The notes below the pieces were generated by a model. That model saw only the letters and a program-made list of their open reading frames with translations, searched no databases and was not told the origin of the DNA. From an uncultured Negativicutes bacterium (GTDB lineage Bacteria > Bacillota > Negativicutes > JBAXTZ01), in NCBI GenBank assembly GCA_963721525.1, contig CAVRJL010000002.1, positions 1 through 35,277 on the forward strand: a stretch of 35,277 bases of DNA, read 5' to 3'. Numbering within the stretch: position 1 is the stretch's first letter; each line of letters opens with the position of its first letter. The translations under genes and the position numbers were made by a program. Below, in pieces: positions 2,115 to 34,705 of this stretch.

Positions 2115-2177
2115 GATTAAGAAATAAGTAGTAATTAATATATATTGTAAATAACTAAAATAAGATATACTTTAATC

Positions 2178-8212: not shown

Positions 8213-8488
8213 GGTTAAGATTTTCATAATTAGGTACTAAAAAGTTAATAAAGAAGCTATACGTTCTTAGATAAATAAGACTGACTCAGAACAGTCAATG
8301 TTGTGATATCTAATGATATACTCATTAAATAATTATTATAGCCTGACATATCAATCTAGGTTGGAAATGAAGACATTGTTCAACTGCCTCACTTTCTGGC
8401 CCTGAAAGGTCCTTACCTTTAAGAAGTTTTATTCTCAAAAATATTACTCCTGTATTCCTTTATTATCTTTTGTTGTATAATATTGTTG

Positions 8489-18253: not shown

Positions 18254-18288
18254 GATTAAATACTAACAGTATAATGTTTCCCTTTCAA
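18254..18288 (-). promoter_or_regulatory. sigma70 promoter of paralog 3
   Basis: TTGAAA (18288-18283), 17 nt, TAGTAT (18265-18260), 6 nt, ATG. Confidence 0.75.
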
Positions 18289-18492
18289 GCAAGAAAGTAA
18301 GAATTAGGTATTAAAAGAATATTTAAGCTAAATCCATGAGACCTTTTACGTATTGCCCTAAATTGAGAAGCTGGCTTAAAGTGTTGATAGTTATTTCCAC
18401 TCAATAATACTTATATTGGAATTTGAGAAAAAGAAAGCATTTAGACAAAAATGCTTTAGAAAATATAATTAGAGAAAAAAAATTTTAAATTA

Positions 18493-20244
18493 TTAATTTC
18501 TATTATGTAGTTTTTCATATAACGAATTTATTGCTGGATTTGTAGGATTTAAATAATATGCGTGATTGATTGGACTTATTGCATTATTCAACTCATTTTT
18601 CTGATATTCTATTTCTCCTAAATATAGCCATAAATTTGAGTCCTGGGGAAACTTCTTTATTGCTATACCTGAGTAATATAAAGCAGTGTTAGTCTGATTA
18701 TTTTTCATTAAAACTACTACCAATCGTTCGTAGACAGAAGCTTGGTCAAAAAGGTTAATCATTTTCTCATAACACTTTATTCCTTTCTCTTTCAAGCCAG
18801 AGTCTTTATTTGTATTACCCAAGATAATAGTAATTGTACAATAATTACTATAGTTAATTACCGAATATGGATAGGCAGTGACTGATTTTTCTATCTCTTG
18901 CTGTGCACCTTGTAAGTCACCCCTTTGAAATAACTCATAACCAAGATTTCCTTCCATAAAATAATCATTGGGATTAAGTTTTAAATCATGTGTATAAAGT
19001 GTTATACCATCTCTCCAATCCGAGCTTCTTATAAAGGTTATCATACTTAATAATATAATTAATGTAATTGAAAACATAAACAAAACATTTTTTACATATA
19101 CTGTTTTTATCTTAATAGAGCTTATAACAGTTCCGATAATTCCTAATAGGCCAACAATTGGGAAATAGAACCATCGGTAAGCTATTGTCTGGTCCAGAGG
19201 AATTATTTGAAGATGTATAGATAACCCGATTATAAACCACAAGCAAAAAAATAAATAAATAAGTTTTTTGTCACTTTTTTTATACCAGATAAAAACTCCT
19301 AATGTCAGTATGCATATTATTGTAAATAAATCAATTATAACCGGAATATAAAAGTTACCGAAATTTGCAGTTTCTACAACTACGTTATTTGACATTGGTA
19401 AATTAAAAGGATAAAAAAATCCTAATATATAAGATGACATGATTAAAGGAACTGTTAATAACCTATGAAATAAATCCGCATACATAATAGGACTTGCTTT
19501 GGGACTATTTACATATATCCCAACTGCAGGGATTCTAAGTAAGGCATAAATTAATAATGCCGGTATAAAAGATGAAATCTGAATCAATTTTTGTTTTTTA
19601 ATAAAAATTAAAATAAAAGTGACAATTATCAGAAAATAAAGTATCCCTGATTCTTTTGACAATAGTGATAAAAGCAACAGTGCTGGAGCCAGATATCTAA
19701 CTAAGTAAGTCTTTGTTTTATACATTATAAGTAGTAAGGATGAGATTCCGAATATGAAAAATAAACTTTCCTGAAGATTGGCAATATATAAAACAGTCTC
19801 TGAATTTATAGGGTGGACTAAAAATATGAGTGATAAAAAGAATGCTAGTTTTTTGTTAAAAAAATATTTAAATAAATAAAAAACGAATATACTATTTATA
19901 ATCTGTATCAATAATTGAGCCCCATGGAAAAAAAATGGGTTGAGACCAAATATTGAAGAAATCAATGCAAATAATGTTAGCGTTACAGGTTTATAATAAA
20001 TACCTGATAGATTACCCTGTTGAGAAGAATAGTATTGACCGCCTTGAAAAAATGAAAAGATATTAGAAATGGATTGAACTTTGGGATTATAAACTATAAG
20101 CGGTAGGTCGTCGGCAACAAAATTATTAAAAAGTCCTGTGCCAAAAATCAGTAGTCCAATAATAATGATAATGTAGGTTGCTTTTTTTATAGTAAGAGGC
20201 ACAAATAAACTTTTTAGGGAAAAATAATGTTCTTGTTCAGGCAT
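18493..20244 (-). CDS. TMTC-like GT-C/TPR glycosyltransferase, paralog 4 (intact, 583 aa)
   Basis: FVADD, YYKP, HPINSETV, SKESG, RWFYFP; about 11 TM segments then TPR-like repeats. Confidence 0.88.
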   Translation of the reverse strand: MPEQEHYFSLKSLFVPLTIKKATYIIIIIGLLIFGTGLFNNFVADDLPLIVYNPKVQSISNIFSFFQGGQYYSSQQGNLSGIYYKPVTLTLFALISSIFGLNPFFFHGAQLLIQIINSIFVFYLFKYFFNKKLAFFLSLIFLVHPINSETVLYIANLQESLFFIFGISSLLLIMYKTKTYLVRYLAPALLLLSLLSKESGILYFLIIVTFILIFIKKQKLIQISSFIPALLIYALLRIPAVGIYVNSPKASPIMYADLFHRLLTVPLIMSSYILGFFYPFNLPMSNNVVVETANFGNFYIPVIIDLFTIICILTLGVFIWYKKSDKKLIYLFFCLWFIIGLSIHLQIIPLDQTIAYRWFYFPIVGLLGIIGTVISSIKIKTVYVKNVLFMFSITLIILLSMITFIRSSDWRDGITLYTHDLKLNPNDYFMEGNLGYELFQRGDLQGAQQEIEKSVTAYPYSVINYSNYCTITIILGNTNKDSGLKEKGIKCYEKMINLFDQASVYERLVVVLMKNNQTNTALYYSGIAIKKFPQDSNLWLYLGEIEYQKNELNNAISPINHAYYLNPTNPAINSLYEKLHNRN

Positions 20245-20315
20245 TCTTAAATACTAACAGTACAATGTTTCCCTTTCAAGCTTCAGATTAATAATTAGGT
20301 ACTAAAAAAGACTTA
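20245..20315 (-). promoter_or_regulatory. Promoter and conserved upstream block of paralog 4
   Basis: TTGAAA (20279-20274), 17 nt, TAGTAT (20256-20251), 6 nt, ATG; 20246-20315 matches 32901-32970 inverted at 67/70. Confidence 0.8.
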
Positions 20316-20326
20316 GAACTGAATCC

Positions 20327-20375
20327 ATGTCCCAAACAAAGAAAAGGTTTACGTAGTGATGTCCAGAATAAAGAA
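20327..20375 (-). repeat. TGTTTGGGAYAT-family site (core 20327-20338) plus degenerate partner
   Basis: + strand atgtcccaaacaaaga...cgtagtgatgtccagaata resembles the pair at 23312-23385. Confidence 0.7.
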
Positions 20376-20508
20376 ATAATATATGTAGATAAAGACTTAA
20401 GAAGGGAAGGTCAATATGTTAGTGGGAGTATAGAGATTTTTTTCTTATAATTATATAATATATATAGGAGAAGGATTTTTAGAAAAATTAGCTTCAAGAT
20501 TGTAATAT

Positions 20509-20534
20509 ATCTGCGTGTACGCGTACACGCAGAT
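20509..20534. repeat. Perfect 26-bp palindrome
   Basis: ATCTGCGTGTACG|CGTACACGCAGAT. Confidence 0.95.
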
Positions 20535-20703
20535 TATTAGTTTCTTTTAAACCTCGGAAACATATTTTTTTGGACAAAAATTATAGTAGCTGTAATAGTA
20601 TAAGATCGATTGGATCACTATCACTGTTTAGAAATTGGGCAATTTACCAAAAAAGATGTCTATTTTGTCTGATTTAGATTTTATACTTTTGTATAATTAT
20701 TTA

Positions 20704-22380
20704 TTATTTTGTTGCCTGTTGTACGTCATTCTTACTGCTCATCTTGTACTCACTTGTCACAAGAGTGTATTGTAAGTCAGCGGAATTTGGATAATACCGA
20801 AGACCGATTAAGCTTGTCTGCTTCGCTGCATCTGGTTTGTTTAATCTGATTTGTGCTAATGCTAACCTAAAATAAATATCAACTATGTGTTGATGGTTAG
20901 TTATGGAGTTTGTAGAATTAAACGCTTTAGAATAATATTCTTCTGCCTTTTGTAGATTTCCAGTAGACTCGTACGCAACACCTAAGTCATAAAGATTAAT
21001 GCCATAAGGATAAAGGTTTACTGATTTTTGAAGATGCATGATACTTTGGGGAATATTTCCTTCCTGCATATATTCTGCGCCAAGACTTGACTCCAGTTCA
21101 TAATTGCCTTCAACCTGCGTATCATGGGATAAGAGTGTTGTTTCATCATAGTAGTTTGTATTTCTTAACATTGTTCTAAGAGAAAAAATTATCAGTATAC
21201 TGATTGCAAATGGAAGTAAAAATGGTTTAACAAGCGGCTTCTTTATTAATAGCTGTATACCTACTCCTATCATTCCTAAAAGACCAATCATTGGGAAGTA
21301 AAACCAACGATCGGAGACTGTCATATCTAATGGGGAAAATGGTAGATGTAAACCAACTCCTATCAAGAACCAAATAAAAAAGAAACAGAACACTTTAAAA
21401 AGCGCTTTATTGTATTTCCAAAGATAGAGAGCTATTCCAAATATACATAGAAAAAAGAAGGAATCTAGTAACAAAGGTAGATAAAAACCACTAAAATTGA
21501 TTGATGAAATCGTCCAAAATTGTTCAATTGCTAATTTTGATGGGAAAAGAAACGTTTTTATGTAATAAAAAAATATGGCAGGTATGTTGATTAACTTTTG
21601 ATAGAACGATAGATGTGCGATCGGGACAAATATAACTTCACTTGGAGTATTCGATTGTAAAGTAAAAGTAAGAAGTTCCTTTCCAATTGTAATTCTGCAT
21701 AATAAATAAGCGGCACTTGCACTAAGAGAACAAAGGAAAATATATTTGAAATGTTTTTTCAGAAATAGAAAAGAAAATAGTGCGACAACGATTACATAAA
21801 GAACTCCTTCCTCTTTTGTAAGTAAAGCAAGAAATAGTAATAATGTAATGAAAAAATATATTTTCTTTGTCAATTTAGTTTTTTGGACTAATAATAGAGA
21901 AAGTAAGCCAAATAAAGAAAATAAAGGACCAACATTTCCCGCTATATATGATGCTGATTCAACATTCATTGGGTGGACAAGAAAAATAAGTGAGAGAAAT
22001 AAAGATAGTACCCTATTAAAAAAATATGTTAATACAATAAAAAGCAGAGCAACTACAAATATATGGATACTTAATTGAAATAGGTGATAATAGAAAGCAT
22101 TTTGTTGAAAAAAGAGATAGATGATTGAAAAAAGCCAAGCTGTAAAGGGCCGATAATACGTTCCATTATTAAATATACTTGGTCCAAATATTTTCGCAAA
22201 ATTAATTGTATGAATCTCAGAATTATTGACTATAAAAACAATATCATCCCAGACAAAACCATTAAAAAGAGAGTTAAAGAAAACAAGAAATCCAATGATC
22301 GATATACATATGATTGCTTTTTTTGCCGTGAGGGGAATAAATAAGCTTTTAAAAGAGAATTTTTGATTCGTTGGTTGCAT
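20704..22380 (-). CDS. TMTC-like GT-C/TPR glycosyltransferase, paralog 5 (intact, 558 aa)
   Basis: FVWDD, YYRP, HPMNVES, TKEEG, SDRWFYFP, TPRs (LYDLGVAYESTGNLQKAEEYYSKA). Confidence 0.88.
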   Translation of the reverse strand: MQPTNQKFSFKSLFIPLTAKKAIICISIIGFLVFFNSLFNGFVWDDIVFIVNNSEIHTINFAKIFGPSIFNNGTYYRPFTAWLFSIIYLFFQQNAFYYHLFQLSIHIFVVALLFIVLTYFFNRVLSLFLSLIFLVHPMNVESASYIAGNVGPLFSLFGLLSLLLVQKTKLTKKIYFFITLLLFLALLTKEEGVLYVIVVALFSFLFLKKHFKYIFLCSLSASAAYLLCRITIGKELLTFTLQSNTPSEVIFVPIAHLSFYQKLINIPAIFFYYIKTFLFPSKLAIEQFWTISSINFSGFYLPLLLDSFFFLCIFGIALYLWKYNKALFKVFCFFFIWFLIGVGLHLPFSPLDMTVSDRWFYFPMIGLLGMIGVGIQLLIKKPLVKPFLLPFAISILIIFSLRTMLRNTNYYDETTLLSHDTQVEGNYELESSLGAEYMQEGNIPQSIMHLQKSVNLYPYGINLYDLGVAYESTGNLQKAEEYYSKAFNSTNSITNHQHIVDIYFRLALAQIRLNKPDAAKQTSLIGLRYYPNSADLQYTLVTSEYKMSSKNDVQQATK

Positions 22381-22415
22381 GTAGATATCCTAGCATTGTT
22401 TAATGTGTGTATCAA
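22381..22415 (-). promoter_or_regulatory. sigma70 promoter of paralog 5 (same geometry, different sequence)
   Basis: TTGATA (22415-22410), 17 nt, TAGGAT (22392-22387), 6 nt, ATG. Confidence 0.7.
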
Positions 22416-22485
22416 TTACAGTAGGAGTGGTATAAATCTTTTTTTCTATATATTTGTAGCAATATCGTAAATAAAGATAATTTGC

Positions 22486-22542
22486 TGATATATGGGCCAA
22501 TGTCCAAAACAGAGATATATGGCCATTTATCAAATATCGGGA
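22486..22542 (-). repeat. Tandem TGTTTGGGAYAT-family sites
   Basis: + strand tgatatatgggccaatgtccaaaacaga followed by gatatatggccatttatcaaatatcggga. Confidence 0.75.
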
Positions 22543-22635
22543 CAATACTACTATTAAAATTTAATATGGCGAGAGACTTCACTGCAGAGGTCTGTTGATA
22601 TTTTGGTAGATTCTGATTTATTTTATACTATTTAT

Positions 22636-22974
22636 CTACGACAATTGAAAAACTTTTACTAATTTATTTTTTAATTCAGGGATGAGTTCGTCAGGTAATG
22701 ATCCTTGTCCTTCTTTTAAAACATTTGATTGAAACGTAACGAGTCGATGGAGCTTTAAAACGGATTTTTGTATTAATCCTGTTGAAGAAAAATATGCCTC
22801 TTTAGGATCAAGAATGATATCTGTTTCCAAAATCTCATCTAATTGGGTTGTCACATAGGCAACTATCACTTGTTGATGCTTACCGAACGCGGAAGAAATA
22901 ACAAAAGCAGGGCGAGGTTTTCCCTTGTTTGCATCATTTGCAAATGGAAATGTAACACTAACTAGCTCGTACAT
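22636..22974 (-). CDS. PemK/MazF-family toxin
   Basis: ELVSVTFPF...GKPRPAFVIS...VTT...GL...SVLKLHRLVT. Confidence 0.85.
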   Translation of the reverse strand: MYELVSVTFPFANDANKGKPRPAFVISSAFGKHQQVIVAYVTTQLDEILETDIILDPKEAYFSSTGLIQKSVLKLHRLVTFQSNVLKEGQGSLPDELIPELKNKLVKVFQLS

Positions 22975-23245
22975 ATGGTTTTGGAGTAAACGGTTTTAGC
23001 TTTTCTGGGTGAGCAATATTATTAACATTAAGCGTTTTGTCCATTTTAGACCATTCGTAAAATAATTGAGATGAGACTATATCCATTTCATTTGGATTCA
23101 TTTCAGTATTTTTTGACTGTGCAAAAGTCCCAACAGCCATTTTAATAAGCTCTGTAGTATTTAACGTGCCCAAGGTTGATTGGCGTAAAATTTGGAGAGC
23201 TTTTTCCAAATCTGGAGTAACGGTAAGACGGATAGTTTGTGACAT
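22958..23245 (-). CDS. Putative cognate antitoxin (RHH-like N-terminus)
   Basis: 95 aa, overlaps the toxin start; beta-alpha-alpha-like TIRLTVTPDLEKALQIL...TTELIKMAV. Confidence 0.65.
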   Translation of the reverse strand: MSQTIRLTVTPDLEKALQILRQSTLGTLNTTELIKMAVGTFAQSKNTEMNPNEMDIVSSQLFYEWSKMDKTLNVNNIAHPEKLKPFTPKPYVRAS

Positions 23246-23247
23246 AT

Positions 23248-23283
23248 AATGGCTATATTATACCATAAATAGCCATTTGTCAA
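23248..23283 (-). promoter_or_regulatory. TA promoter with operator-like inverted repeat
   Basis: TTGACA (23283-23278); AATGGCTAT-N12-ATAGCCATT (23248-23277) spans the -10 region. Confidence 0.75.
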
Positions 23284-23311
23284 CCATAATTATGAATTTG
23301 ACTTCTCACGA

Positions 23312-23385
23312 TGATATATGGGCCAATTTTCCAAACAAAAGACAATTATATTCTTATTCGTAGCGATGTCCCAAACAGCGGGAAT
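23312..23385 (-). repeat. Two TGTTTGGGAYAT-family sites (cores 23326-23337, 23366-23377)
   Basis: + strand tgatatatgggccaattttccaaacaaaaga and cgtagcgatgtcccaaacagcgggaa. Confidence 0.8.
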
Positions 23386-23485
23386 TTATTTTGAATCAAT
23401 AGATTAATAAGGCATTACAGATCCTAACTAATCTAAGTGATTTATCCTAACCAGCTGCGTTGCTAAATAATGGATTTATTTCAAA

Positions 23486-23878
23486 TTATGGTTCTGAAAC
23501 ACTAATAGTGTGAATTGAAGAAAGTCTTTTGTCGTAGGTATAAAGGGTCATATTCCCTAATTCTGCAAATGCTGCTAAATAAGAGTCAATGTATGAAATA
23601 TTATTGTCTTTCCATATTTTTAAAGCTCTTCCAATTAGGAACGCATTACATTCAACACTATCTACATGAATTAACGCCATTACTTTATCAATTACCTCCT
23701 GTTTTTCCAGAGAGTAGTATGAATTTAGTACCCATATTATTTCAGCAATAACAGTATCAGGAATAATATTGTGGTTACTTGAGTCTTTTAAAAGTCGTTC
23801 AACGCGGGAGACTTTTACAGGGTCGTCATTAACAAAGAAACGGATAATAAGATTAGTATCAATTAAGTTTTTTGACAT
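23486..23878 (-). CDS. vapC: PIN-domain toxin (VapC family)
   Basis: IDTNLIIR, VIAEIIWVL, SYIDS, TYDKRL acidic PIN residues. Confidence 0.9.
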   Translation of the reverse strand: MSKNLIDTNLIIRFFVNDDPVKVSRVERLLKDSSNHNIIPDTVIAEIIWVLNSYYSLEKQEVIDKVMALIHVDSVECNAFLIGRALKIWKDNNISYIDSYLAAFAELGNMTLYTYDKRLSSIHTISVSEP

Positions 23879-24110
23879 ACTTAACTATTAGGGCGTCTTC
23901 AACAGCTTTTTCCATAGCTTCAATATTAAAGGGTTTATGAGATTTAATAGAACCTTTAAGAGCAAAAAAGTCAGCAACAGGTTTAATTGATACGGTATTA
24001 TCATTAATTTCAAACACTATTTTTGTGTTTGGCTTAATTCCAAGCAACTGACGAATTTGGACAGGAATTGTAGCTTGTCCTTTTTGAGTTACAGAAGTTG
24101 TAAATTGCAT
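23859..24110 (-). CDS. vapB: AbrB/MazE/SpoVT-family antitoxin
   Basis: VTQKGQATIPVQIRQLLGIKPNTKIVF. Confidence 0.88.
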   Translation of the reverse strand: MQFTTSVTQKGQATIPVQIRQLLGIKPNTKIVFEINDNTVSIKPVADFFALKGSIKSHKPFNIEAMEKAVEDALIVKYVKKLN

Positions 24111-24158
24111 ATTAATACGATATCAAAAAAGTATTACTATGTCAATAGGGTAATACTT
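24111..24158 (-). promoter_or_regulatory. vapBC promoter with operator-like inverted repeat
   Basis: TTGACA (24145-24140), 17 nt, TATCGT, 6 nt, ATG; AAGTATTAC-N12-GTAATACTT (24129-24158) straddles the -35. Confidence 0.75.
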
Positions 24159-24250
24159 ATTTGTGTGTTAGGAAAAACGAATAAGAGAGCACATTACGCA
24201 CGAATAAAACATTCTTTCGTTGGCTGTTCCCAACGGTGAATAGTTAAAAC

Positions 24251-24277
24251 GGGCCAATATCCCAAACAAAAGATAAC
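24251..24277 (-). repeat. TGTTTGGGAYAT-family site (core 24257-24268)
   Basis: + strand gggccaatatcccaaacaaaagataac versus gggccaattttccaaacaaaagacaat at 23320. Confidence 0.8.
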
Positions 24278-24325
24278 TCGTGCGTAAATATTTCAATAAT
24301 ATTCCCAGTTCAAGAAACTTGATGT

Positions 24326-24838
24326 ATGATACATGTAATGGATCTTTCTAATAACTCTATCTCTTTAGCAGGTGAATTTGCAGTACTATCTCAGTTGGCC
24401 TTACGTGGTTTTGATGCAAATATGACGCTGGGCAATACAAAAAGCGTAGATATTCTAGTATCTGATCCACAACAAAATAGATTGTTTAAAATTGAGGTAA
24501 AAACTCATTATAGAGTAACTCCAACTCAATCTAAGTTATTTGGGCATCATTTAGGTTGGATGATGTCGCAAAAACACGAAAACATTATTGATCCAAATCT
24601 ATATTATGTCTTTGTTAATATTGGTAATGACTCTAGAATATTCAGATTTTTTATTGTTCCCAGTGTAATTGTAGCTAACTATGTGAAAGAACAACATATA
24701 TATTGGCTTTCTCATAAATTGAGTGAGGAGAGTGATTCTTCAATTCGTAGTTTTAGAATAGGTTTGGATGATGGGGTTTACGCAATACAAACACCTTTGG
24801 CAAAAGATTTTGAGAATAAGTGGGAATTTACGCTTTAG
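24326..24838 (+). CDS. PD-(D/E)XK nuclease-family protein
   Basis: AGE.AV...L..RG, VDILV, IEVKT (E...D...ExK). Confidence 0.75.
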   Translation: MIHVMDLSNNSISLAGEFAVLSQLALRGFDANMTLGNTKSVDILVSDPQQNRLFKIEVKTHYRVTPTQSKLFGHHLGWMMSQKHENIIDPNLYYVFVNIGNDSRIFRFFIVPSVIVANYVKEQHIYWLSHKLSEESDSSIRSFRIGLDDGVYAIQTPLAKDFENKWEFTL

Positions 24839-24938
24839 TGATTAATGTAAGTTTAGGAGATCAGTGTATCAAGGCCACTATTATATACAACTAGAGGAAG
24901 TATAAGAATTATAGTGCTATAATCGAAAGAGCATAAAC

Positions 24939-27900
24939 ATGAATCTTTTTAACCCTAAAATTCTTCAACAACGACTCGCTGCTTTTGATTTTCCTACCGG
25001 AGAAAAGTCACAACAGATTGCTAAAGGTATTACTGGTTGGCAAACTGCACTAAAAGATCGGGATTTGGCTAAAACAAAAGAGAAAACCATACAAGGATTA
25101 TTTTTACAAAAGTTTTTTGGAGAGATCCTAGGCTATACATTAGTTTCAGAAAACATTGAAGAATGGAATTTAATCCAACATCCCACCTCAGAAGTTGATG
25201 CACAAGAACCTGATGGCTCACTTGGCTTTTTTACTAAAGAAGAAAAAATTACCAAGGCGGTTATTGAGCTTAAAGATGCAAAAACCTCACTTGATAAAAA
25301 ACAAACTGGACGGGGAAAAGGCTATACACCAATTGAGCAAGCATATTTGTATTCAACAAAGTTTGATAGATGTAACTGGATTATCGTGTCAAATTTTAGA
25401 GAGATACGACTATATAATGAAAATCGTACACAGGATTATTTTGAAAAGTTTGATGTGTTGGAGCTTCATAAAGAGGGAGAGTTTAAGCGCTTTTATTATC
25501 TTCTTTGCAAACAGAACTTACTTTCAAAAGCAGCAGCATCAATTATTGATGACTTGGCCAACGATACAACTGTAGTCAATGAAGATATTACCAAAAAGTT
25601 TTATGGAGAATATAAAAACGCTCGTTTAAGTTTATTTAATCACCTTGTAGAGCACAATCCCACGATAGATAAAACAATCTTACTTGAAAAAGCACAAAAG
25701 ATTATAGATAGATTTATTTTTATTCTATTTTGTGAGGATACCGGTAATTTGATGCCTCAAAATTTAGTGAAAGATACGTATGAATTTGGGATTCGATCAC
25801 GAGAGAGAAGCGATGAGCGGGTATGGCGAGAATATAAAAATTTGTTTATGGATATTGATGTCGGAAGAAGTGATATAGACCCTAAAATAAACAAGTATAA
25901 TGGAGGGCTTTTTGCAAATGACGAGATTTTAAATAATCTAAAAATAAAGGATTCAATTTGGAAGGCACTAGTTGATCTAAATACCTATGATTTTGAAAGT
26001 GAGCTAAATGTAAATATTTTAGGACACATTTTTGAGCAAAGTATTAGTGATTTAGAAGCTTTAAAAACATCAATTCATCTTCTCACGGAGGATGGGAATT
26101 ATTTAACGACAGAAAACGGTGATAGATTAATAGCAGAGCAGGAAGATATACAAATTGTTGAAAAAAAAGGGGAGAAGAAAGAAAGAAGGAATTTTTTATA
26201 CGCCTGAATTTGTCACCCAATACCTTATCGAAAATGTTGTCGGCCGTTTTCTTGAGGATAATCCGAACAAACTTGAGAGTATAAAGATACTGGATCCCGC
26301 CTGTGGGAGTGGTGCGTTCTTAAATCAAGCACATACGTTTCTCATGAATGAATATAAAGTGAGACATGAACAACGGCTAGTAGAGCAAACAAATAAGCGA
26401 CAACTAGATTTTTCTGACGTAAATTTAGCCGAAACGAATAGGAGCATATTACTTAATAATTTATATGGAGTCGATTTAAACCCTGAAAGTGTCGAGATAA
26501 CTAAATTGTCGTTGTGGCTTAAGACTGCACGTTCATCTGAACCTCTCCAAAATCTTGATAAAAATATTAAGTGTGGCAATAGTATAGTTGATGATCCGGA
26601 GTATGCCGGATCACGAGCCTTTCACTGGCAAAAAGAGTATCCTGAAATTCTTAGAGATGGTGGATTTGATGTCATTATTGGTAACCCTCCATACGTGCGA
26701 CAAGAGTTGATAAAAGACATAAAGCCATATTTGGAAAATAAATATAAAGTATACTCCGGTGTGTCTGATTTATATGTGTACTTTTTTGAGAAAGCCCTAG
26801 ATCTCTTAAGAGATAACGGATATTTCGCATTTATTGTCTCGAGTAAATTCTTACGCGCTGATTATGGAAAGAAACTTACTCAGTATCTACAACAAAATTA
26901 CACTATTCTTGAGTTAATCGACTTTGGAGATTTACAAATATTTGAAGGTGCTACAACTTATCCTTGCATCATTACTATTAAGAAGAAAAAACCCGAGGAC
27001 TTGCAGCAGGTGAGCTTTCTCAAACTAAAGTCTTTAGATGTGGTTAGCGACTTAGGAATGGCCATGAAAAAGGAAGGGCAGACGATTGAGATTAAGAAAG
27101 ACGATGAAAATTGGCAATTGAGAACAATAGAGGAAAATAACATATTATTAAAACTTAAATCAAATAAAAATATTTTGGACGATTTTGCTGATAAACAAAT
27201 ATTAAGGGGAATAATTACTGGCTTCAATGAGGCTTTTATAATTAATTCTAATACTAAAGAAAGATTAACTAGGGAAGATCCAAAATGTGTTGAAGTTATT
27301 AAACCAATTTTTATCGGGAAAGATATCAATAGGTATGATGCTACATGGCAAGAGCTCTGGTGTATCGTCTTACCGGCAGGATGGACAAATAATAATAGGG
27401 GGGAAGAAGATCCAGAAGCTTATTTTCAGACGTATTACCCTTCTATTTACACTCATCTTAGGAATGTTCAATCTGCCTTTAATAACAATAATGGGAATGG
27501 TGATGCTAGAAAAAAAGGGTTGTTGAATCGAGATGATCAAGGAGACTATTGGTGGGAACTAAGACCATGTGTCTATTATAAATTGTTTGAACAACCAAAA
27601 ATTATTTGGGGTAATTTGTCCACGCATGCTTCTTTTTCTTATGATTCAAAAGGTTTTTATATCAGCGCGCCTGCTTGTTTTATTCCAACCAAAGAAAAGT
27701 GGCTACTAGCTATATTAAATTCACCAATCTCAAGCTACTTTTTGAGAATTACAGCGATTGAGCGACAGGGTGGATTCATAGAACAAAAACCAATGTATGT
27801 TAAAGAAATTCCAGTACCTAACCTCCCCAGCGAGCTAAAATCTGTTTTGTCAAGTGAGGTAGACTTATTATTACAGTTATATAAGGGGGAACAGGAACTC

Positions 27901-28236
27901 ACTTATCAGTCGTTGGAATTATTAAAGACTGAATATGCCAACATCAAAATTACTAAAAAGTTAGAAAATTTTTTATCGTTAGGTTGGAATGAATTTATAG
28001 AAGAATTAGAAAAGCAAAAGATAAAACTTTCCTTACAGAAAAAAGATGAATTAACTAAATGGTTTCGAGAGAAACAAACACGTTTCCAAAAAGCAGAGCA
28101 ACAAATTAAAACAATTGATGAGTCGATGGACAAGGAAATATATAAGATTTACAAACTTTCCAATAGCGACATACAGATAATTTTGAATAATATTCACCAA
28201 AATATTTCACAAAAGGATTTACCCGCAATATCATAA
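24939..28236 (+). CDS. Type IIG restriction-modification enzyme (nuclease + N6-adenine MTase + TRD), one frameshift near 26165
   Basis: EPDG...IELK nuclease, YNGGLF, ILGHIFEQ; then GIFYTP, LDPACGSGAFL, IGNPPYVRQE and a TaqI_C-like TRD. Confidence 0.9.
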
Positions 28237-28478
28237 ATGTCTGACTACATGAGCTTTAGGTCTTCTATATAAATTATAATATTTTTTCTTTCGAATTTAT
28301 TTAATGTATGTTTGAACCTAGAATTTATTTTTAAGGCATTTACTGTGCATGGAATTGGTTGTTTTGAAAGTTGATCTAAACATTTATATGGAGTAGTAAA
28401 AGAATTATAGTGTACTATTATATCTTAATTTAATATAATTATTAATGTAATTGTATTATTATTCGAGAGTTTTTAGTA

Positions 28479-29300
28479 CTAAAAATTATTAAACCATGCA
28501 GTATCAATCTCAAGTATTTCTTTAGTGATAACCTTAACTCCTAAGCCTAGATCGCACATTTTTTGTGCTAGCTCATCTCCCTCTACTAAATCTATTGGTA
28601 TTGATCCATCTCTATTTGCTTCTTGTTTTGCGTCTCGTGTGAAAGTACCCGTTGTAATAAAAAGACCTTTATCAGCTCTTCCAGACATTGTACCTTTAAA
28701 CTCTCGGATTTCTTTGGAAGAAACACTTCCTTTGTATCTTTTACATTGAAAAATAACTTTAAAACTTAAAAATCCGCCAATTTTAATTAATCCTGTTCCA
28801 TCTATTCCACCATCACCTGATTTTCCTGTTACATTGACTTGTATAAAACCAGCTTCTCTTAAAATTCGTTGACATAATCTTCAAAATCTTTTGGCGACAA
28901 ATTTTTTAAGATTGTCAGTAATTCATCCTTCCATGAGTCAATGTCTGTATTCCCAAATTGTTCTACAATTTCTCCAGCAAATTTACTTAAACCTTTTACG
29001 AAAGTATTGACTTTGTCTTTATCGACATTCGATGTATTTTTGCCTAGCGATGTTAGTACCCAAACACCTCTTGAAGAATTTTCTAGTAATCCGTATCTTT
29101 TTAAATAGTTCCTTGCCCAAGCCAGACGATAATTTAGTACAGTTCTATTTCCCTGATGAATTTCGTTAACTTCTCGATCTGAAAGATTAAGGATACTTGC
29201 TACTTTCTGTTCCTGCTCGGCAATTGATGCAGGACCCGCCCAATTCGTGAAGTGCTTTTAGTAATGGATTGAATAACCCATCGTATTTTGGTATTGCCAT
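28479..29300 (-). CDS. mrr: Mrr-family type IV restriction endonuclease (frameshifted)
   Basis: From ATG 29300: MAIPKYDGLFNPLLKALHELGG...YRLAWARNYLKRYGLLENSSRGVW (Mrr N-terminal domain); then VTGKSGDGGIDG, FQCKRYKG, GLFITTG.FTRDA. Confidence 0.88.
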
Positions 29301-29441
29301 ATATGTATTTTATCAGATCTCCGCAATGTTTTAATTTTATCTTTAGTGCCTGCCTACAGCTGGTTGTTTTGGAGATACAAGGATATCCTATCTTTATTAT
29401 ATTGTCTAATTACTAAATTCGCGTTATAGTTATTTGCGCGT

Positions 29442-29995
29442 TTATTCGTTTGTAGATTGTGCTACATTTTTTAAATGTTGTTCAACATTTTTAAATGCAG
29501 CACGTACATTGTTTGCTTGGTCGTCTATATCTGACACTGTCCAGTCAAGAGCCATAGCTACATAACTTTCATCTCCTAATGTTTGACTGTGAGAGTCTCT
29601 ATTAGCTATGTCATAGGTAATCATAGAATTAAAAATTCTAACTTCATTATAAGCAATAATTAACTGGTTACCTAGCTCTTCAGGTAATAAATATATAAGT
29701 CCTTTATAGATATTCCACGCTTCAGTTACGAAAGGTACCTTTCTATTTCTATTTGCCCTTTTCATTCAACTGAAGATTTTCTTGAGCTTCAATAAATAAC
29801 CCTCTGATCATAGCTTTTTTTCTCGTCTGTAATTTTTTTCAACTGTCGATCTCTTGCTTGTCTTGCAAATTCATTTGCAGTTACCCTCAAAGTAAAATAA
29901 GCAGTTAAGATCGCGAATACTCAGACAGAACCCCCAACCAACCCTCCTGAAACTGCACCCCAATTGCCGTCTTTTAAATATAACAGTAAATTCAT
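29442..29995 (-). CDS. Hypothetical protein with N-terminal TM helix (interrupted)
   Basis: ATG 29995 lies 7 nt after TATAAT; MNLLLYLKDGNWGAVSGGLVGGSV, in-frame TGA, VFAILTAYFTL; must join ORF 29442-29765 through indels. Confidence 0.5.
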
Positions 29996-30059
29996 TTGGT
30001 CTATTATAGCACTGCTATTATATAGTTTTGTTTGTGGCACACGATTTTTTAGTATACTT

Positions 30060-30216
30060 TTCGTGCCTATTTTCTCGCTGTTTGGGATATTCTCAATTCT
30101 TCAGTTGTGCCTATTTTTTTTGGTTGGGATTATCAGTATCGGTTTAATGGTGATTAAGCATCATTTTGTGCGTAATTTTTTGTTTGGGATAGGCCGTATT
30201 TAATTCTGTTTGAGTA
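30060..30216 (+). repeat. Cluster of four TGTTTGGGAYAT-family sites (cores 30079, 30121, 30181, degenerate 30207)
   Basis: gtgccta-N9-tgtttgggatatt; gtgccta-N7-tggttgggatt; gtgcgta-N6-tgtttgggataggcc; tgtttgagt. Confidence 0.8.
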
Positions 30217-30230
30217 ACGGAAAAAAGCCA

Positions 30231-30268
30231 TTGACAAGACTTTATCAAACCATTATAATTATATTATC
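30231..30268 (+). promoter_or_regulatory. Consensus sigma70 promoter of the RelBE-like operon
   Basis: TTGACA, 17 nt, TATAAT, 9 nt, ATG. Confidence 0.85.
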
Positions 30269-30553
30269 ATGAATAAAACAATCCTTCAAGTACCATTAAG
30301 TCAACAGATCAAAAATGAAGCTGAAAAAGCAGCTACAGCCCAAGGATTTTCTTCCTTACAAGAAGCAGTTAGAATATTTCTAAATAAACTTGCTCAGGGT
30401 GCAATACAGGTAACTTTTGAGGAAACGATCCAGTTATCTGAAGATGCAACAAATCGTTACAATAGAATACTTGCTGATATAGAAAACAATAAAAATATGA
30501 ATGAGGCAGAAAACATTGATGATTTAATGAAGCAACTTCATAATGCGTCTTAA
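30269..30553 (+). CDS. RelB/DinJ-like antitoxin
   Basis: ILQVPLSQQIKNEAEKAATAQGFSSLQEAVRIFL; acidic tail NIDDLMKQL; overlaps the toxin start. Confidence 0.75.
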   Translation: MNKTILQVPLSQQIKNEAEKAATAQGFSSLQEAVRIFLNKLAQGAIQVTFEETIQLSEDATNRYNRILADIENNKNMNEAENIDDLMKQLHNAS

Positions 30554-30806
30554 TTATACTCAAAACTTCATAAAGAATTATTCAAAGCGAATAGTAAAGA
30601 ATAAAAGTATTGATAAACGGTTTCAAGAGCGGTTGCAATTATTTCTAGCTAATCAACATAGTCCAATTCTTAGAACTCATAAACTAGCTGGTGCAAAGAA
30701 GAACTTATACTCCTTTTCCATTACTGGAGATATTAGAGTTATATATTTTCAAGAAGGAGAATCAATTTTCTTGGTTGATATTGGAACTCATAATCAGGTT
30801 TATTAA
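30543..30806 (+). CDS. RelE/YafQ-family mRNA interferase toxin
   Basis: F.K.Y.K...LRTHKLAG...YSFSITGDIRVIY...DIGTHNQVY. Confidence 0.9.
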   Translation: MRLNYTQNFIKNYSKRIVKNKSIDKRFQERLQLFLANQHSPILRTHKLAGAKKNLYSFSITGDIRVIYFQEGESIFLVDIGTHNQVY

Positions 30807-30842
30807 TATACAACCACTTAAAACAAACATATACTATTTCTT

Positions 30843-30913
30843 TGTTTGAGATCTATCTTGTTTTATTAAAGTTTTATTCGTGTCTAATTCTTTTATGTTT
30901 GGGATATTCTCAA
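30843..30913 (+). repeat. TGTTTGGGAYAT-family site (core 30896-30907) plus degenerate copy at 30843
   Basis: ttcgtgtctaattcttttatgtttgggatattctcaa versus ttcgtgcctattttctcgctgtttgggatattctcaa at 30060. Confidence 0.8.
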
Positions 30914-30916
30914 CAT

Positions 30917-30959
30917 TCTGAAGCTTGAAAGGGAAACATTGTACTGTTAGTATTTAAGC
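30917..30959 (+). promoter_or_regulatory. Promoter of paralog 6
   Basis: TTGAAA (30925-30930), 17 nt, TAGTAT (30948-30953), 6 nt, ATG; 42 bp identical to the paralog 4 promoter. Confidence 0.8.
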
Positions 30960-32732
30960 ATGCGTGAGCAAAAAGATTATTTTCCCTTAAAAAGTTTATT
31001 TGTGCCTCTTACTACAGAAAAATCAATCTACATTATTGTTATTTTGGGTTTTATTGTTTATTTCAATGCTTTCTTTAATGGATTTGCCGCTGACGATATA
31101 CTATATATCGTTAATAATCAATTAACTCATGTAGTAAATATTATTCTTGCATTCGGAGTAAATGACTTTAATAGTTCTGGGCAATATCGTCCTATACCAG
31201 CGTTTTATTTTTCATTACTTTATTCGTTATTTAGTACAATTCCATTTTTTTATCATCTACTACAAATTATTTTGCATATTATTTGTACAGTATTAATTTA
31301 CTTTTTATATCGTAAATTTCTATCACCAGCTATTGCATTATTTTTAAGTCTTGTATTTCTTGTCCATCCTATGAATGTTGAATCAGTTTCATATATTGCA
31401 CAAACAGTAAGCCCTCTGCTCTTTCTTTTTGGAGTAATAGCACTTCTTTTTTCTGCTTCAAAAAATTTATCCAATAGCAAAATTGTTATAATTTTTTCTT
31501 TACTACTCCTTTCGCTCTTGACTAAAGAAAGTGGTGGAGTCTTTCTTCTTTTAGTGCCTCTATATCAATTCCTTTTTACCAAGAAAAATCGACTAAAACT
31601 TGCCTTTGATCTCTTTTTGTGTACTTATAACATATCTATTAATACGTCTGGGAATTGGCCAAGTTGGTTTTTCAGCACGTCCGTTAGCAAATATTGCTGG
31701 AATATCTCTTAGTAGAACGTTTACTTAATATTCCCGCAATAATTTTTTTCTACCATACATACCTTCTATTCTATCCCAAGACTCTTGCCTTTGATCAACA
31801 ATGGGTTATTAGTTCAGTAAGTTTCTCTACTTTCTATATACCATTTCTATTTGATGCAGTATTTTTTGGTTTTATTTGCGTATTAGGTATCTATATATAT
31901 AAATGGCAAAAGAATTATTTTAGGCCTTTTCTTTTTTTCTCTCTTTTGGTTTGTTTTCGGCCTGGGTCTATATTTACAAATATTCCCGCTTGATAAAACA
32001 GTCGCTGAACTTTGGTTCTATTTCCCAATGGTAGGTTTACTTGGTATAGTAGGAATTTTTTATCAAATACTAACTTATAAGTTTTCTGCATACTACAGAA
32101 TTACTCCCATACTTGTTATTATTATTCTTTCTTTATTATCGCTGCGGACTATTGTTCGCAATACCAATTGGCAAAACAATTTCACACTTTATACTCATGA
32201 TATTGTCTATAACGATAACTTCGATATTGAAAATAACCTTGGAATAGTTTATGAAGATAATAATGAATATACACTGGCATTGCAGCATTATAAAAAGTCG
32301 GTTGCATTAAAGCCATTCGAATTGAATTTAGCTAATCTGGCAATTACTTACCAGAGTATCGGAGACTTGCAAAAAGCTAAGCAATATTACTACCAGGCTT
32401 TTCATGCAAAAGACTACAAGCTCGATTCCAACCATAAGCATAATCCAAACTTAGATGTTGGCTATGCAACTTTTTTAGTGTTTTATGAGAATTCTCCTTC
32501 TGCAATATCTTTTATTCAATCAGCAGTGAATGATTATCCAAACCAAGCAGACTTGTGGACACTGTTAGCACTTGCTAACTATATAAATCGTGATAATCAA
32601 AAAGCCCTTTATGCGGCAAATAAAGCATATCAGTTAAACCCACAAAATGCATATATATATAATCAAATCCAAAATGATCAACCTGTTGAGTTTAACTTAG
32701 ATAGTAAAACCTTTCACATTAAACCAAGATGA
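30960..32732 (+). CDS. TMTC-like GT-C/TPR glycosyltransferase, paralog 6 (frameshifted)
   Basis: ORFs 30960-31712, 31694-31993, 32028-32732; FAADD, QYRP, HPMNVESV, TKESG, TPRs. Confidence 0.85.
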
Positions 32733-32900
32733 GAACCTTAGTAATGAATACAAATTGGTCAGATGAGATTACCTTATTGAACCATGATTTCAAAGTTCAG
32801 TAGAAATGTTCCCTTATAAGCTAAACTATTAGGAGATAGGGTTTATTTACGAACGAATAGGGAATAACAGCTATGTATACAATTAAACAATAATTAGTCT

Positions 32901-32971
32901 TAAGTCTTTTTTAGTACTTAATTCTTAATCTGAAGCTTGAAAGGGACACATTGTACTGTTAGTATTTAAGC
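32901..32971 (+). promoter_or_regulatory. Promoter and conserved upstream block of paralog 7
   Basis: TTGAAA (32937-32942), 17 nt, TAGTAT (32960-32965), 6 nt, ATG. Confidence 0.8.
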
Positions 32972-34705
32972 ATGCATGAGCAAGAATATTATTTTTCTTT
33001 AAAAAGTTTATTTCTACCTCTGACAACGAAAAAAACAATTTGGATTATTGTTATTGTCAGTTTTATAGTTTTCTTCTATATGTTATTCAATAATTTTGTT
33101 TTGGATGATTTAACATATATTCAATTTAACACAGATATTCATTCATTCAATATAGAAAAAATATTTGGCAATAGTTTTTTTAATGATTCCTCATACTATC
33201 GACCAATAGCTGCTCTATATTTTACAATTTTATATTTATCGTTTGACAATACGACTTTTTTCTACCATGTTTTCCAGCTAGCATTCCATATAACAGACGT
33301 AGTATTATTATTTCTTGTTTTCAAACATTTCTTTAACCGTAAACTCTCTTTATTTCTTTCCCTCATTTTTCTTGTACATCCGATACAAGTTGAGTCGGTT
33401 TCGTATATTTCAGCATCTGACAGTACAATATTCTTTCTTTTTGGTATCATTGCGTTACTGCTTTCTTTAAAAAATGAAATTACACTGAGAAGACTGATGG
33501 GAATATCAGGATTACTGTTATTATCTTTACTTACTAAAGAGACTGGGTTTCTTTTTCTTGTAGTTATTTTCTTTTATTCACTTTTATTTAAGAGAAAGTA
33601 CTTGGTTAAATTTTCTATAGCATTTGTAATTATTACATTACTCTATTGCTTTATCCGCTTCATTATTGGAGGAGTTTTTTTTACAAAACCGAATGCAATA
33701 CCGATTAGTGGTCTTACTCTGTTTGAACGGTTTATCAATGTACCAGCAATTATTTACTATTATATTAAAACAATATTTTTACCTCTACAATTGGTAGTTG
33801 ATCAACAATGGATAATCAAAACTGTGGATTTTCCTAACTTTTATTATCCACTGATTATTGTTATAAGTTTTTTCCTATTTATTGCAGCTTTCATATTTTA
33901 CTTAAGAAGTAACAGAAAGCCTATATCACTATTTATGTTTTTTTTACTTTGGTTTATCATGGGATTGTTAATTACTTTACCTTTTTTCCCGATTGATGCG
34001 ACTGTCGCGGATAGATGGATGTATTTTCCAATGGCCGGGTTTTTAGGAATGCTTGGTGTTATATTATCTTCAATAAAGATAACTAAATATAAAATAAAAA
34101 CAGTAGGTTATATATCAGGAAGTCTAATCTTGTTGTTTTTATCACTGAGGACAATGGTAAGAGATACAAATTGGTATGATCCTATTACTCTTTATTCTCA
34201 TGACAGTCAAATACAAACAAATTATGATTTGGAAAATTGGCGGACCCTTGAATATGCTTCAATGAATAAGTATGATGAAGCGATACAACATTATAAAAAA
34301 TCAGCTGCCTTATATCCTTACGAAGTTACTTTTTCTAACCTAGCACATACTTACCGACAATCAGACGACAACAATAAAGCTAAAGAGTATTATATTAAAA
34401 CTTTAAATGCTCAATATATCTCACCAATACATAAACAGGTAACTGAAGATGCTTATGAAGGATTAGCGGATTTGTCTGTTCTCTCTAATAAACCTAATGA
34501 CGCCCTACTTTTTATTGAAACTTTATTGCGAAAATATCCAAAGTCTGGGAAATTATGGGCGGATTTAGCAATGAATGAATATAAATTACATAATCAAAAA
34601 GCAGCACTTAATGCAGCATTTAAGGCAAAAGTACTTACTCCTGATGACAACATAAATTATATATATTCTCAAATCCTAAATAATCAGCCTATTAATTTAC
34701 CATAA
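32972..34705 (+). CDS. TMTC-like GT-C/TPR glycosyltransferase, paralog 7 (intact, 577 aa)
   Basis: FVLDD, YYRP, HPIQVESV, TKETG, ADRWMYFP, TPRs. Confidence 0.88.
   Translation: MHEQEYYFSLKSLFLPLTTKKTIWIIVIVSFIVFFYMLFNNFVLDDLTYIQFNTDIHSFNIEKIFGNSFFNDSSYYRPIAALYFTILYLSFDNTTFFYHVFQLAFHITDVVLLFLVFKHFFNRKLSLFLSLIFLVHPIQVESVSYISASDSTIFFLFGIIALLLSLKNEITLRRLMGISGLLLLSLLTKETGFLFLVVIFFYSLLFKRKYLVKFSIAFVIITLLYCFIRFIIGGVFFTKPNAIPISGLTLFERFINVPAIIYYYIKTIFLPLQLVVDQQWIIKTVDFPNFYYPLIIVISFFLFIAAFIFYLRSNRKPISLFMFFLLWFIMGLLITLPFFPIDATVADRWMYFPMAGFLGMLGVILSSIKITKYKIKTVGYISGSLILLFLSLRTMVRDTNWYDPITLYSHDSQIQTNYDLENWRTLEYASMNKYDEAIQHYKKSAALYPYEVTFSNLAHTYRQSDDNNKAKEYYIKTLNAQYISPIHKQVTEDAYEGLADLSVLSNKPNDALLFIETLLRKYPKSGKLWADLAMNEYKLHNQKAALNAAFKAKVLTPDDNINYIYSQILNNQPINLP

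What the first reader, a model, noticed from the sequence alone, without database searches (positions are those of the whole stretch)
20160..33050. Constant 5' module (promoter plus ~22 codons) fused to variable glycosyltransferase bodies
Seen: six paralogs (1-4, 6, 7) share cTTGAAAgggaaacattgtactgtTAGTATttaa-ATG (paralog 1 most diverged) and [21 protein letters not shown]. Paralogs 4 and 7 match at 67/70 bp upstream, paralogs 4 and 6 share 42 identical bp, and paralogs 1 and 2 are close even at synonymous sites, while downstream coding sequence is highly diverged. Non-coding DNA more conserved than the enzyme body is unusual. Inference: gene conversion or recombination at this block swaps gene bodies; the inverted copies (4 versus 6/7) could also invert 10.6-12.6 kb. 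Alternatively, it is strict co-regulation.
Basis: partly seen in the sequence, partly recalled or inferred. Interest (0 to 1): 0.78.

Follow-up and report, generated by a model that had tools for sequence, protein, structure and literature searches.

The report
Copied promoter-anchors on old glycosyltransferase genes
Six anciently diverged membrane glycosyltransferase genes on a contig that likely comes from a tiny Patescibacteria bacterium share a near-identical predicted promoter plus the first ~22 codons, most likely because ordinary recombination copies this start block between them, a known process that recurs with a different block in several related genomes.

Summary
Observation confirmed. 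Seven TMTC-like GT-C/TPR glycosyltransferase paralogs lie on this contig, which is likely a misbinned Levybacteria (Patescibacteria) contig. Six share a predicted leaderless sigma-70 promoter: the 36 bases before ATG match at 33-35 among paralogs 3, 4, 6 and 7. They also share excess synonymous identity in codons 1-22 (73/93 versus 521/1091). The bodies are 32-43% identical and fall in seven separate subfamilies with foreign relatives; monophyly is rejected (p-AU 7e-27). The N-terminal protein motif is family-wide, so it is not evidence by itself. The DNA block is lineage-specific (0 of 245 related genomes). Other Levybacteria show the same pattern with their own blocks: 19/246 within-genome pairs versus 1/6519 between genomes, but only 2/57 pairs in an unselected sample. 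The freshest tracts end at the catalytic DD motif. Best explanation: RecA-type ectopic conversion of a promoter-plus-membrane-anchor block. Capture of foreign bodies at that block is not excluded. No dedicated recombinase was found, and an inversion would switch nothing. This is known concerted evolution in an unusual setting (enzymes, promoter included). The scan noted similar 5' conversion in other Patescibacteria paralog sets.

The parts
2013..2125 (-). 5' block of paralog 1 (predicted -35 at 2114, -10, ATG 2078, codons 1-22); most diverged copy, subtype shared with g2
326..2078 (-). Paralog 1, GT-C/TPR gene with frameshifts (likely assembly errors); 3' end approximate
8111..8245 (-). 5' block of paralog 2 (predicted -35 at 8212, ATG 8176)
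6454..8176 (-). Paralog 2, two frameshifts; 3' end approximate
18188..18340 (-). 5' block of paralog 3 (predicted -35 at 18288, ATG 18253); similarity to g4 extends about 85 nt upstream
   Evidence: (D7)
16500..18253 (-). Paralog 3, frameshifted; body nearest foreign genes at 58-60% aa
20179..20315 (-). 5' block of paralog 4 (predicted -35 at 20279, ATG 20244); encodes short helix 10-13 and start of TM1 (19-39)
18493..20244 (-). Paralog 4, intact 583 aa GT-C fold + TPR, DD at 45-46
20704..22380 (-). Paralog 5, 558 aa; own promoter, no synonymous excess (internal control)
30916..31025 (+). 5' block of paralog 6 (predicted -35 at 30925, ATG 30960); 42 nt identical to g4
30960..32732 (+). Paralog 6, frameshifted
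32729..32797 (+). Relic internal fragment (profile positions 400-422) of a further paralog, abutting the g6 stop
   Evidence: (D19)
32901..33037 (+). 5' block of paralog 7 (predicted -35 at 32937, ATG 32972); 67/71 to g4 upstream
32972..34705 (+). Paralog 7, intact 577 aa
6393..6425 (-). Degenerate promoter-like copy (22/33 to block consensus, at the level of chance hits elsewhere in the bin) between g2 and the YfhO-like gene
   Evidence: (D11)

Best explanation
The shared block is a predicted compact leaderless sigma-70 promoter plus the codons for the N-terminal helix and first membrane helix of a GT-C glycosyltransferase, and it is likely kept alike within one genome by RecA-type ectopic recombination (gene conversion) between old paralogs. 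Shown: the bodies belong to separate subfamilies older than the species, the 5' blocks group by genome, and fresh tracts in relatives run from about -73 to the catalytic DD motif. Inferred: the family-wide conserved N-terminus supplies the homology that lets conversion start. Once converted, promoter and start form the longest near-identical stretch and are converted again. Tracts running past DD into the first external loop would change substrate binding and are purged. The inferred result is a set of enzymes with different specificities under one promoter strength. It is not a programmed switch.
For: Body tree (78 rows, FastTree): the 7 window bodies need 7 changes, each sits with foreign genes. 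AU test (22 rows) rejects g3+g4+g6+g7 (p 7e-27), g4+g7 (1e-106) and g3+g6 (1e-53) as clades. 5' DNA tree (28 hand-picked rows): six window blocks in one group (SH-aLRT 91); 9 genome changes, minimum 8, shuffled mean 18.6. Same-codon use in codons 1-22: six paralogs 158/235 vs body 1199/2639; g5 control 33/69 vs 513/1122. Column test g3/4/6/7: 8/13 vs 17/79, p=0.005. No such 5' excess between genomes (0.42-0.47 vs 0.43-0.45 for bodies up to 55% identical), so 5' codon bias does not explain it. Upstream >=26/36: 14/21 window pairs, 19/246 other within-genome pairs, 1/6519 between genomes. Among genes that both have a canonical promoter: 29/75 vs 0/870. G044 tandem pair: near-identical from -73 to DD with 117 nt exact, middle mostly 43-72%, last ~300 nt 87-100%. 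G042 pair: 114 nt exact, ending just before DD, body 36% aa. G044 has a MscL 90% identical to the window's, yet its nearest relatives of g6 and g7 match upstream at only 15 and 18 of 36. RecA in 5 of 5 relatives.
Against: A position-free permutation on silent codons is significant for only 1 of 21 window pairs (g3/g6, p=0.008 uncorrected), so the window's coding signal rests on a pre-specified region and on non-independent pairs. In the window the 17-nt spacer (15-17/17) is better conserved than silent codons (78%), which one neutral tract would not give; selection on the promoter or shorter later tracts must be added. One ortholog pair at 60% body identity keeps 32/36 upstream, so promoters can be conserved by selection, although orthologs at 78-82% had 16-26/36. 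In an unselected sample only 2 of 57 within-genome pairs (2 of 13 multi-copy genomes) share a promoter. Conversion is not confined to the 5' end: one internal tract (codons ~346-414, G042) and one 3' tract (G044) were seen. RecA was not looked for in the window's own organism, and direction is not shown.
Confidence: 0.6

Rival explanations
1. 5'-anchored capture. Foreign glycosyltransferase bodies taken up by natural transformation (or moved from another locus) recombine into a resident or freshly duplicated gene through the conserved promoter/TM1 block. The 3' joint is made at a second conserved stretch or illegitimately. The block acts as a docking site and the body is the mobile part. This can coexist with conversion.
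For: A 23-codon relic of another paralog (profile 400-422) abuts the g6 stop, as if g6 displaced the first ~400 codons of an older gene. The G044 tandem pair has near-identical 5' and 3' ends, a foreign middle, and a junction that copies the tail of the upstream gene (read as dnaJ from its sequence) right after the first gene's stop. Seven subfamilies are gathered in 35 kb, whereas G044's relatives of g6 and g7 lie on different contigs and its mscL contig has no family member. ComEC in 5 of 5 relatives. Natural competence shown in Saccharibacteria, com genes conserved across CPR (PMC10633639, passages).
Against: No comparable relic was found after family genes in loci L014-L103. No close foreign donor was found for any window body (best 45-60% aa for the genes reported). 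The same patterns follow from duplication, deletion and conversion inside one genome.
Confidence: 0.25
2. Co-regulation. A lineage-specific transcription factor binds the spacer/-10 region, and selection keeps the site alike in all regulated paralogs.
For: The spacer is more conserved than silent codons in the window. A short inverted repeat (5+3+5 nt) overlaps the -10 box (seen in the sequence, untested). In G053 identity covers about 50 nt of promoter and only the first 2-3 codons. One ortholog pair keeps 32/36 at 60% aa. A degenerate copy lies before the unrelated YfhO-like gene.
Against: It cannot explain silent-site identity over 100+ coding bases ending at DD or the copied tail of a neighbouring gene. 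Genome-specific promoter patterns hit only paralogs: 3 of 3 in G043, 3 of 3 in G041, 6 of 6 in the own bin; the patterns were built from those paralogs and the genomes are incomplete. The site is absent from 245 related genomes at 3 mismatches, so many copies would have had to change in parallel in each lineage.
Confidence: 0.1
3. Invertible switch: the inverted copies (g4 versus g6/g7) flip the 10.6-12.6 kb defence-gene segment and change expression.
For: Inverted arms of 160-231 nt at 73-85% complementarity, with a 42-nt exact core, could support rare RecA inversion.
Against: No recombinase family among the 24 window proteins scanned. Every copy has its own full promoter, so a crossover would exchange only far-upstream flanks. 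The arms are not near-perfect. Direct-orientation copies and copies on other contigs show the same pattern in relatives.
Confidence: 0.03
4. Assembly artefact: a repeat-collapsing assembler pasted one 5' block onto several bodies.
For: The contig has many frameshifts at homopolymers, also in unrelated genes. One G042 copy begins 40 nt from a contig end.
Against: The six copies differ from each other in structured ways, with two subtypes and different upstream boundaries. The pattern recurs with different sequences in independent assemblies, including a tandem pair inside a 418-kb contig.
Confidence: 0.02

Closest known systems
Helicobacter pylori babA/babB/babC and homA/homB segmental concerted evolution (review PMC3960876, passages read)
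   Same: Paralogs with homologous ends and variable middles. One segment is more alike within a strain than between strains. Most likely RecA-dependent intragenomic conversion, giving chimeras.
   Different: There the homogenised segment is the 3' end of adhesin genes. Here it is the predicted promoter plus the first membrane helix of enzymes only 32-43% identical, ending at or before the catalytic DD motif.
Staphylococcus aureus lpl tandem paralog cluster (PMC2568036, abstract and outline read)
   Same: Conserved DNA in each paralog serves as a recombination site. 5' and 3' parts of one gene have incongruent phylogenies, and the unit of evolution includes intergenic DNA.
   Different: In lpl the conserved region is central and the unit spans two adjacent same-strand genes. 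Here the conserved region is the gene start, and copies are partly inverted or dispersed.
Borrelia erp upstream homology box (named in scan note e1-3796883; otherwise recalled, not read)
   Same: Divergent paralogs share a conserved promoter/5' block.
   Different: As recalled, that box is a species-wide regulatory element on prophage plasmids with known binding proteins. Here the block differs from genome to genome and no binding protein is known.
Shufflons and hsdS inversion systems (recalled)
   Same: A constant 5' part can be joined to variable 3' parts.
   Different: They have one expressed constant part, silent cassettes, precise crossover sites and a dedicated recombinase. None of these was found here.
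TMTC1-4 / GT-C protein O-mannosyltransferases (PMC7801869, passages read)
   Same: GT-C fold, DD after TM1, YY(K/R)P, KE(S/T/E) and an RW-x-Y motif, C-terminal TPR.
   Different: Bacterial; sugar donor and acceptor unknown. The RxD and DW motifs were not confirmed, and orthology to TMTC was not tested.

Membership tests
Segmental concerted evolution by ectopic gene conversion | Segment more alike between paralogs of one genome than between orthologs of different genomes | tested here: met
   Upstream >=26/36 in 33/267 within-genome vs 1/6519 between-genome pairs; 5' tree groups by genome
Segmental concerted evolution by ectopic gene conversion | Rest of the gene has an older, incongruent history | tested here: met
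   Body tree and AU tests
Segmental concerted evolution by ectopic gene conversion | Excess identity at silent sites, with discrete tract ends | tested here: met
   (pre-specified region); sharp ends at DD in G042 and G044. The position-free test is weak in the window (1 of 21 pairs)
Segmental concerted evolution by ectopic gene conversion | Non-reciprocal, RecA-dependent transfer | not testable with these tools
   RecA present in 5 of 5 relatives; no strains or reads available
Shufflon / site-specific inversion system | Dedicated site-specific recombinase beside the cassettes | tested here: not met
   No recombinase family among 24 window proteins; the window is the whole contig, so a recombinase elsewhere is not excluded
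Shufflon / site-specific inversion system | One expressed constant 5' part, promoterless silent cassettes | tested here: not met
   All seven paralogs have their own -35/-10-like site and start codon
Shufflon / site-specific inversion system | Mixed orientations in the population | not testable with these tools
   No sequencing run was listed
Transcription-factor regulon | Same site before non-homologous genes | tested here: inconclusive
   Found only before paralogs in three incomplete genomes; one weak 22/33 copy before a YfhO-like gene
Cis-regulatory structured RNA | Fold more stable than shuffles | tested here: not met
   z = 0.37, 0.79, -0.29, -0.12 for four blocks
GT-C glycosyltransferase, TMTC-like | GT-C membrane fold | tested here: met
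   AF2 model pLDDT 92; VIA-align Z 20.8 AglB (rmsd 4.1, 331 aligned), 20.6 Pmt (4.1, 349), 19.9 ArnT (4.6, 342); PMT_2 Pfam hits on g3 and g6 pieces
GT-C glycosyltransferase, TMTC-like | DD motif after TM1, YRP-type and KET-type motifs, C-terminal TPR | tested here: met
   DD at 45-46, YYKP/YYRP, KES/KEE/KET in g4, g5, g7; motifs as defined in PMC7801869; TPR
GT-C glycosyltransferase, TMTC-like | Protein O-mannosyltransferase activity | not testable with these tools
   Needs biochemistry

The most novel reading that the evidence does not exclude
In Levybacteria the leaderless promoter plus first-membrane-helix block is a recombinase-free docking site. Glycosyltransferase bodies from a shared pool of subfamilies are captured behind it by natural transformation, joined at or before the catalytic DD motif, and are expressed at once from the resident promoter. 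This would be an integron-like way for an episymbiont to diversify surface glycosylation, and possibly a general consequence of leaderless gene architecture in Patescibacteria.
Probability: 0.25. Interest if true: 0.7.

Novelty: new variant of a known kind. Interest (0 to 1): 0.42.

Why it matters
It is a clear bacterial case of old enzyme paralogs (32-43% identical) being brought under one promoter sequence by recombination rather than by parallel evolution of a regulator site. The tract boundary matches protein anatomy: everything up to the catalytic DD can be shared, and the part inferred to set specificity is not. If capture is the direction, it gives a testable route by which naturally competent Patescibacteria renew their surface-glycosylation enzymes. 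Practically, shared upstream motifs among CPR paralogs should not be read as operators without this test. The mechanism itself is textbook.

Tried and rejected
Relatives of the bin (40 genomes) were uninformative: 1 weak TPR-only hit. The contig lacks Shine-Dalgarno-type starts (1/30 ORFs, versus about 35-45% in the large contigs), so it is likely misbinned. The exact block was not found in metagenome contigs or in 245 genomes of the order. No sequencing run was listed, so inversion and frameshifts were not checked against reads. One search had g3 and g6 codon alignments shifted by an included stop; its coding numbers were discarded and redone. In one search, exact matches of 80-146 nt starting at -150 or near gene ends were overlaps of adjacent genes, not tracts, and were ignored. 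The 78-row IQ-TREE run did not finish; FastTree and a 22-row IQ-TREE without mixture model replaced it. The generic promoter scan is not above shuffles (107 vs 101), so the promoter call rests on its fixed spacing to ATG (27 of 90 family genes fit the pattern, no shuffled control). Structured RNA was rejected. Sequence and Foldseek searches of the PDB returned only TPR matches among listed rows; VIA-align found GT-C. Phase variation at homopolymers was considered for the frameshifts and set aside, because unrelated genes, including ATP synthase subunits on contig C7, are split too. Literature searches (listings only) showed no paper on 5' conversion of these Patescibacteria genes; subscription papers are not covered, and no supplements were consulted.
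Full report
SETTING. The window is the whole of contig C2 of bin G000. It carries seven paralogous genes of about 560-590 codons: g1 ATG 2078(-), g2 8176(-), g3 18253(-), g4 20244(-), g5 22380(-), g6 30960(+), g7 32972(+). g4, g5 and g7 are open; g1, g2, g3 and g6 carry frameshifts, several at T runs. Unrelated genes are split too, so these are likely assembly errors (inference). The contig probably does not belong to the bin. None of 40 relatives of the bin has a real homologue. Named homologues are Patescibacteria, often Levybacteria. Only 1 of 30 ORFs has a Shine-Dalgarno-like start, versus 35-45% in the large contigs. The window's MscL is 90% identical to that of G044, whose record title names Ca. 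Levybacteria.

THE PROTEINS. The g4 model (pLDDT 92) has a short helix 10-13, TM1 at 19-39, DD at 45-46, further membrane helices and a TPR tail. It matches GT-C enzymes: AglB Z 20.8, Pmt 20.6, ArnT 19.9. DD, YY(K/R)P, KE(S/T/E) and RW-x-Y are present. They correspond to TMTC motifs in PMC7801869, where DD in the first external loop is the active-site position and that loop helps bind both substrates (passages). Sugar and acceptor are unknown.

CHECKING THE OBSERVATION. The upstream block reads as TTGAAA, 17 nt, TAGTAT, 6-7 nt, ATG, i.e. a predicted leaderless sigma-70 promoter (no start site was mapped, and the generic scan alone is not above chance). It occurs six times in the bin, each time before a paralog. 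g5 has a promoter of the same layout but a different sequence. Over codons 1-22 the six genes use the same codon at 158 of 235 shared residues, versus 1199 of 2639 in the body; g3/4/6/7 give 73/93 versus 521/1091; g1/g2 14/18 versus 69/168; g5 against the others 33/69 versus 513/1122 (pairs are not independent). A column test gives 8/13 versus 17/79 (p=0.005). A position-free permutation is significant for only 1 of 21 pairs, so the window's coding signal is real but modest. The non-coding signal is the strong one. The amino-acid motif is no evidence: 25 of 120 listed homologues match it strictly and 65 loosely. The block forms no unusual RNA structure.

IS THE BLOCK OLD OR RECENT? The 29-mer is absent, at 3 mismatches, from 245 genomes of the order. 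From related loci I extracted 110 foreign family genes and compared them with the 7 window genes. Identity of the 36 bases before the start reached 26 or more in 14/21 window pairs, 19/246 other within-genome pairs (7 of 15 multi-copy genome groups) and 1/6519 between-genome pairs; that one pair is 84% identical in the body and scores 27. Limited to genes with a canonical promoter layout, the counts are 29/75 versus 0/870. Between genomes the first 22 codons show no silent excess over the body. Each genome has its own shared block; patterns for G043 and G041 hit only paralogs and only their own genome among five. Five of these genomes were chosen for having many hits, partly after I saw shared promoters. 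So I took the next 40 handles unselected: 23 have the family, and I fetched 40 regions from 14 multi-hit genomes (single-hit genomes, matches lacking a 5' end and one G083 copy were left out). There 2 of 57 within-genome pairs, in 2 of 13 multi-copy genomes, share a promoter (33/36; bodies 34-40%). Orthologs at 78-82% score 16-26, but one ortholog pair at 60% scores 32. A few genes of this sample also occur as single loci in the first set. The pattern is therefore recurrent but patchy, and this window is an extreme case.

TREES. In a body tree (after codon 46; 78 rows: window genes, five top homologues, ten multi-copy genomes and six near neighbours) the seven window bodies need seven changes and each sits with foreign genes (FastTree). 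On 22 rows the AU test rejects g3+g4+g6+g7, g4+g7 and g3+g6 as clades (p 7e-27, 1e-106, 1e-53). A tree of the 5' block (28 rows I picked as near relatives of window bodies or as promoter-sharing sets, which favours clustering in the foreign genomes) groups six window blocks together with g1/g2 as a subgroup, and needs 9 genome changes against a minimum of 8 and 18.6 shuffled. G044's nearest relatives of g7 (60% aa) and g6 (51%) match upstream at only 18 and 15 of 36. Recent duplication followed by fast body divergence is thus excluded; recombination has joined young 5' blocks to old bodies.

FRESH TRACTS. In G044 two tandem genes are nearly identical from -73 to the DD codons (117 nt exact), mostly 43-72% in the middle and 87-100% over the last ~300 nt. 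The second copy's upstream begins with the tail of the gene before the first copy, joined right after the first copy's stop (that gene reads as dnaJ from its sequence, not from a search). In G042 two genes are identical for about 170 nt bar one base, to just before DD, with bodies 36% identical (one copy is near a contig end). Coding windows of 85% or more starting in codons 1-50 occur in 17/267 within-genome versus 10/6513 between-genome pairs. Against a purely 5' rule, G042 also shows an internal tract (codons ~346-414). In the window, tracts begin at about -44 (g6), -70 (g4/g7) or -85 (g3/g4) and fade by codon 23-31, inside TM1. A 23-codon relic of another paralog abuts the g6 stop.

MECHANISM. 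Shown: incongruence, silent-site excess, discrete tracts, genome-specific blocks. Inferred: RecA-type ectopic recombination (RecA and ComEC in 5 of 5 relatives; not checked for this organism) starts in the family-wide conserved N-terminus. With a leaderless layout the promoter lies within 40 nt of it and is carried along. Selection removes tracts that enter the first external loop. I favour copying of the block between resident genes (0.6) over capture of foreign bodies behind the block (0.25); the g6 relic and the G044 pair keep the latter open. An operator may add constraint, since the spacer is better conserved than silent codons, but cannot explain the coding tracts (0.1). Inversion between g4 and g6/g7 is physically possible, but no recombinase was found and it would only exchange far-upstream flanks.

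COMPARISON AND VERDICT. It works like segmental concerted evolution in H. pylori bab/hom genes (PMC3960876, passages) and like the recombining S. aureus lpl cluster (PMC2568036, abstract). It fails the tested shufflon features. Homology-facilitated illegitimate recombination is recalled; I saw only titles in a reference list. Seven literature searches (listings only) showed no report for these genes. Earlier scan notes describe similar promoter-plus-5' conversion in other Patescibacteria paralog sets and an array of this enzyme family; I did not test those. Verdict: a real feature, a known mechanism in an unusual setting; interest 0.42.

Noticed in passing
window 13189-13310 (-) versus 10635-10760 (-): The promoter region and first ~21 codons of the methyltransferase gene 9797-10693 are duplicated (91% over 69 nt; start codon lost in the copy), flanking the YfhO-like gene 10870-13062. 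The footprint is the same size as the glycosyltransferase block, in an unrelated family.
   Followed up: partly
window 22636-30806: Defence-type island between the divergent g5 and g6: PemK/MazF-like, PIN with AbrB/MazE-like and RelB/YafQ-like toxin-antitoxin pairs, a split Eco57I/MmeI-like restriction-modification gene, and a small ORF at 28479-28688 that reads like an Mrr fragment (recalled, not searched).
   Followed up: no
window 30045-30096 and 30862-30913: A 52-nt direct repeat (73%) flanks the RelB/YafQ-like pair; the second copy ends right where the g6 block begins.
   Followed up: partly
G000 contigs C2 and C7: Both lack Shine-Dalgarno-type starts (1/30 and 0/39 ORFs) and carry split genes, unlike the large contigs; the bin looks chimeric, with Patescibacteria-like contigs.
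   Followed up: partly
G041:C80:29390-32213 and G044:C3:349869-362916: recA lies about 300 bp upstream of a family gene in G041 and about 8 kb from two family genes in G044.
   Followed up: no
L016 (gene at 6648) versus L047 (gene at 2242), genome G042: Internal conversion-like tract, 70 nt exact, codons ~346-414, beginning at the conserved RW-x-Y region.
   Followed up: partly
window 20509-20534: Near-perfect 26-nt palindrome in the g5-g4 intergenic region, a terminator-like hairpin.
   Followed up: no
window 20704-22380: g5 ends about 25 residues earlier than its paralogs, lacking the last TPR helix; possibly a frameshift or true truncation.
   Followed up: no
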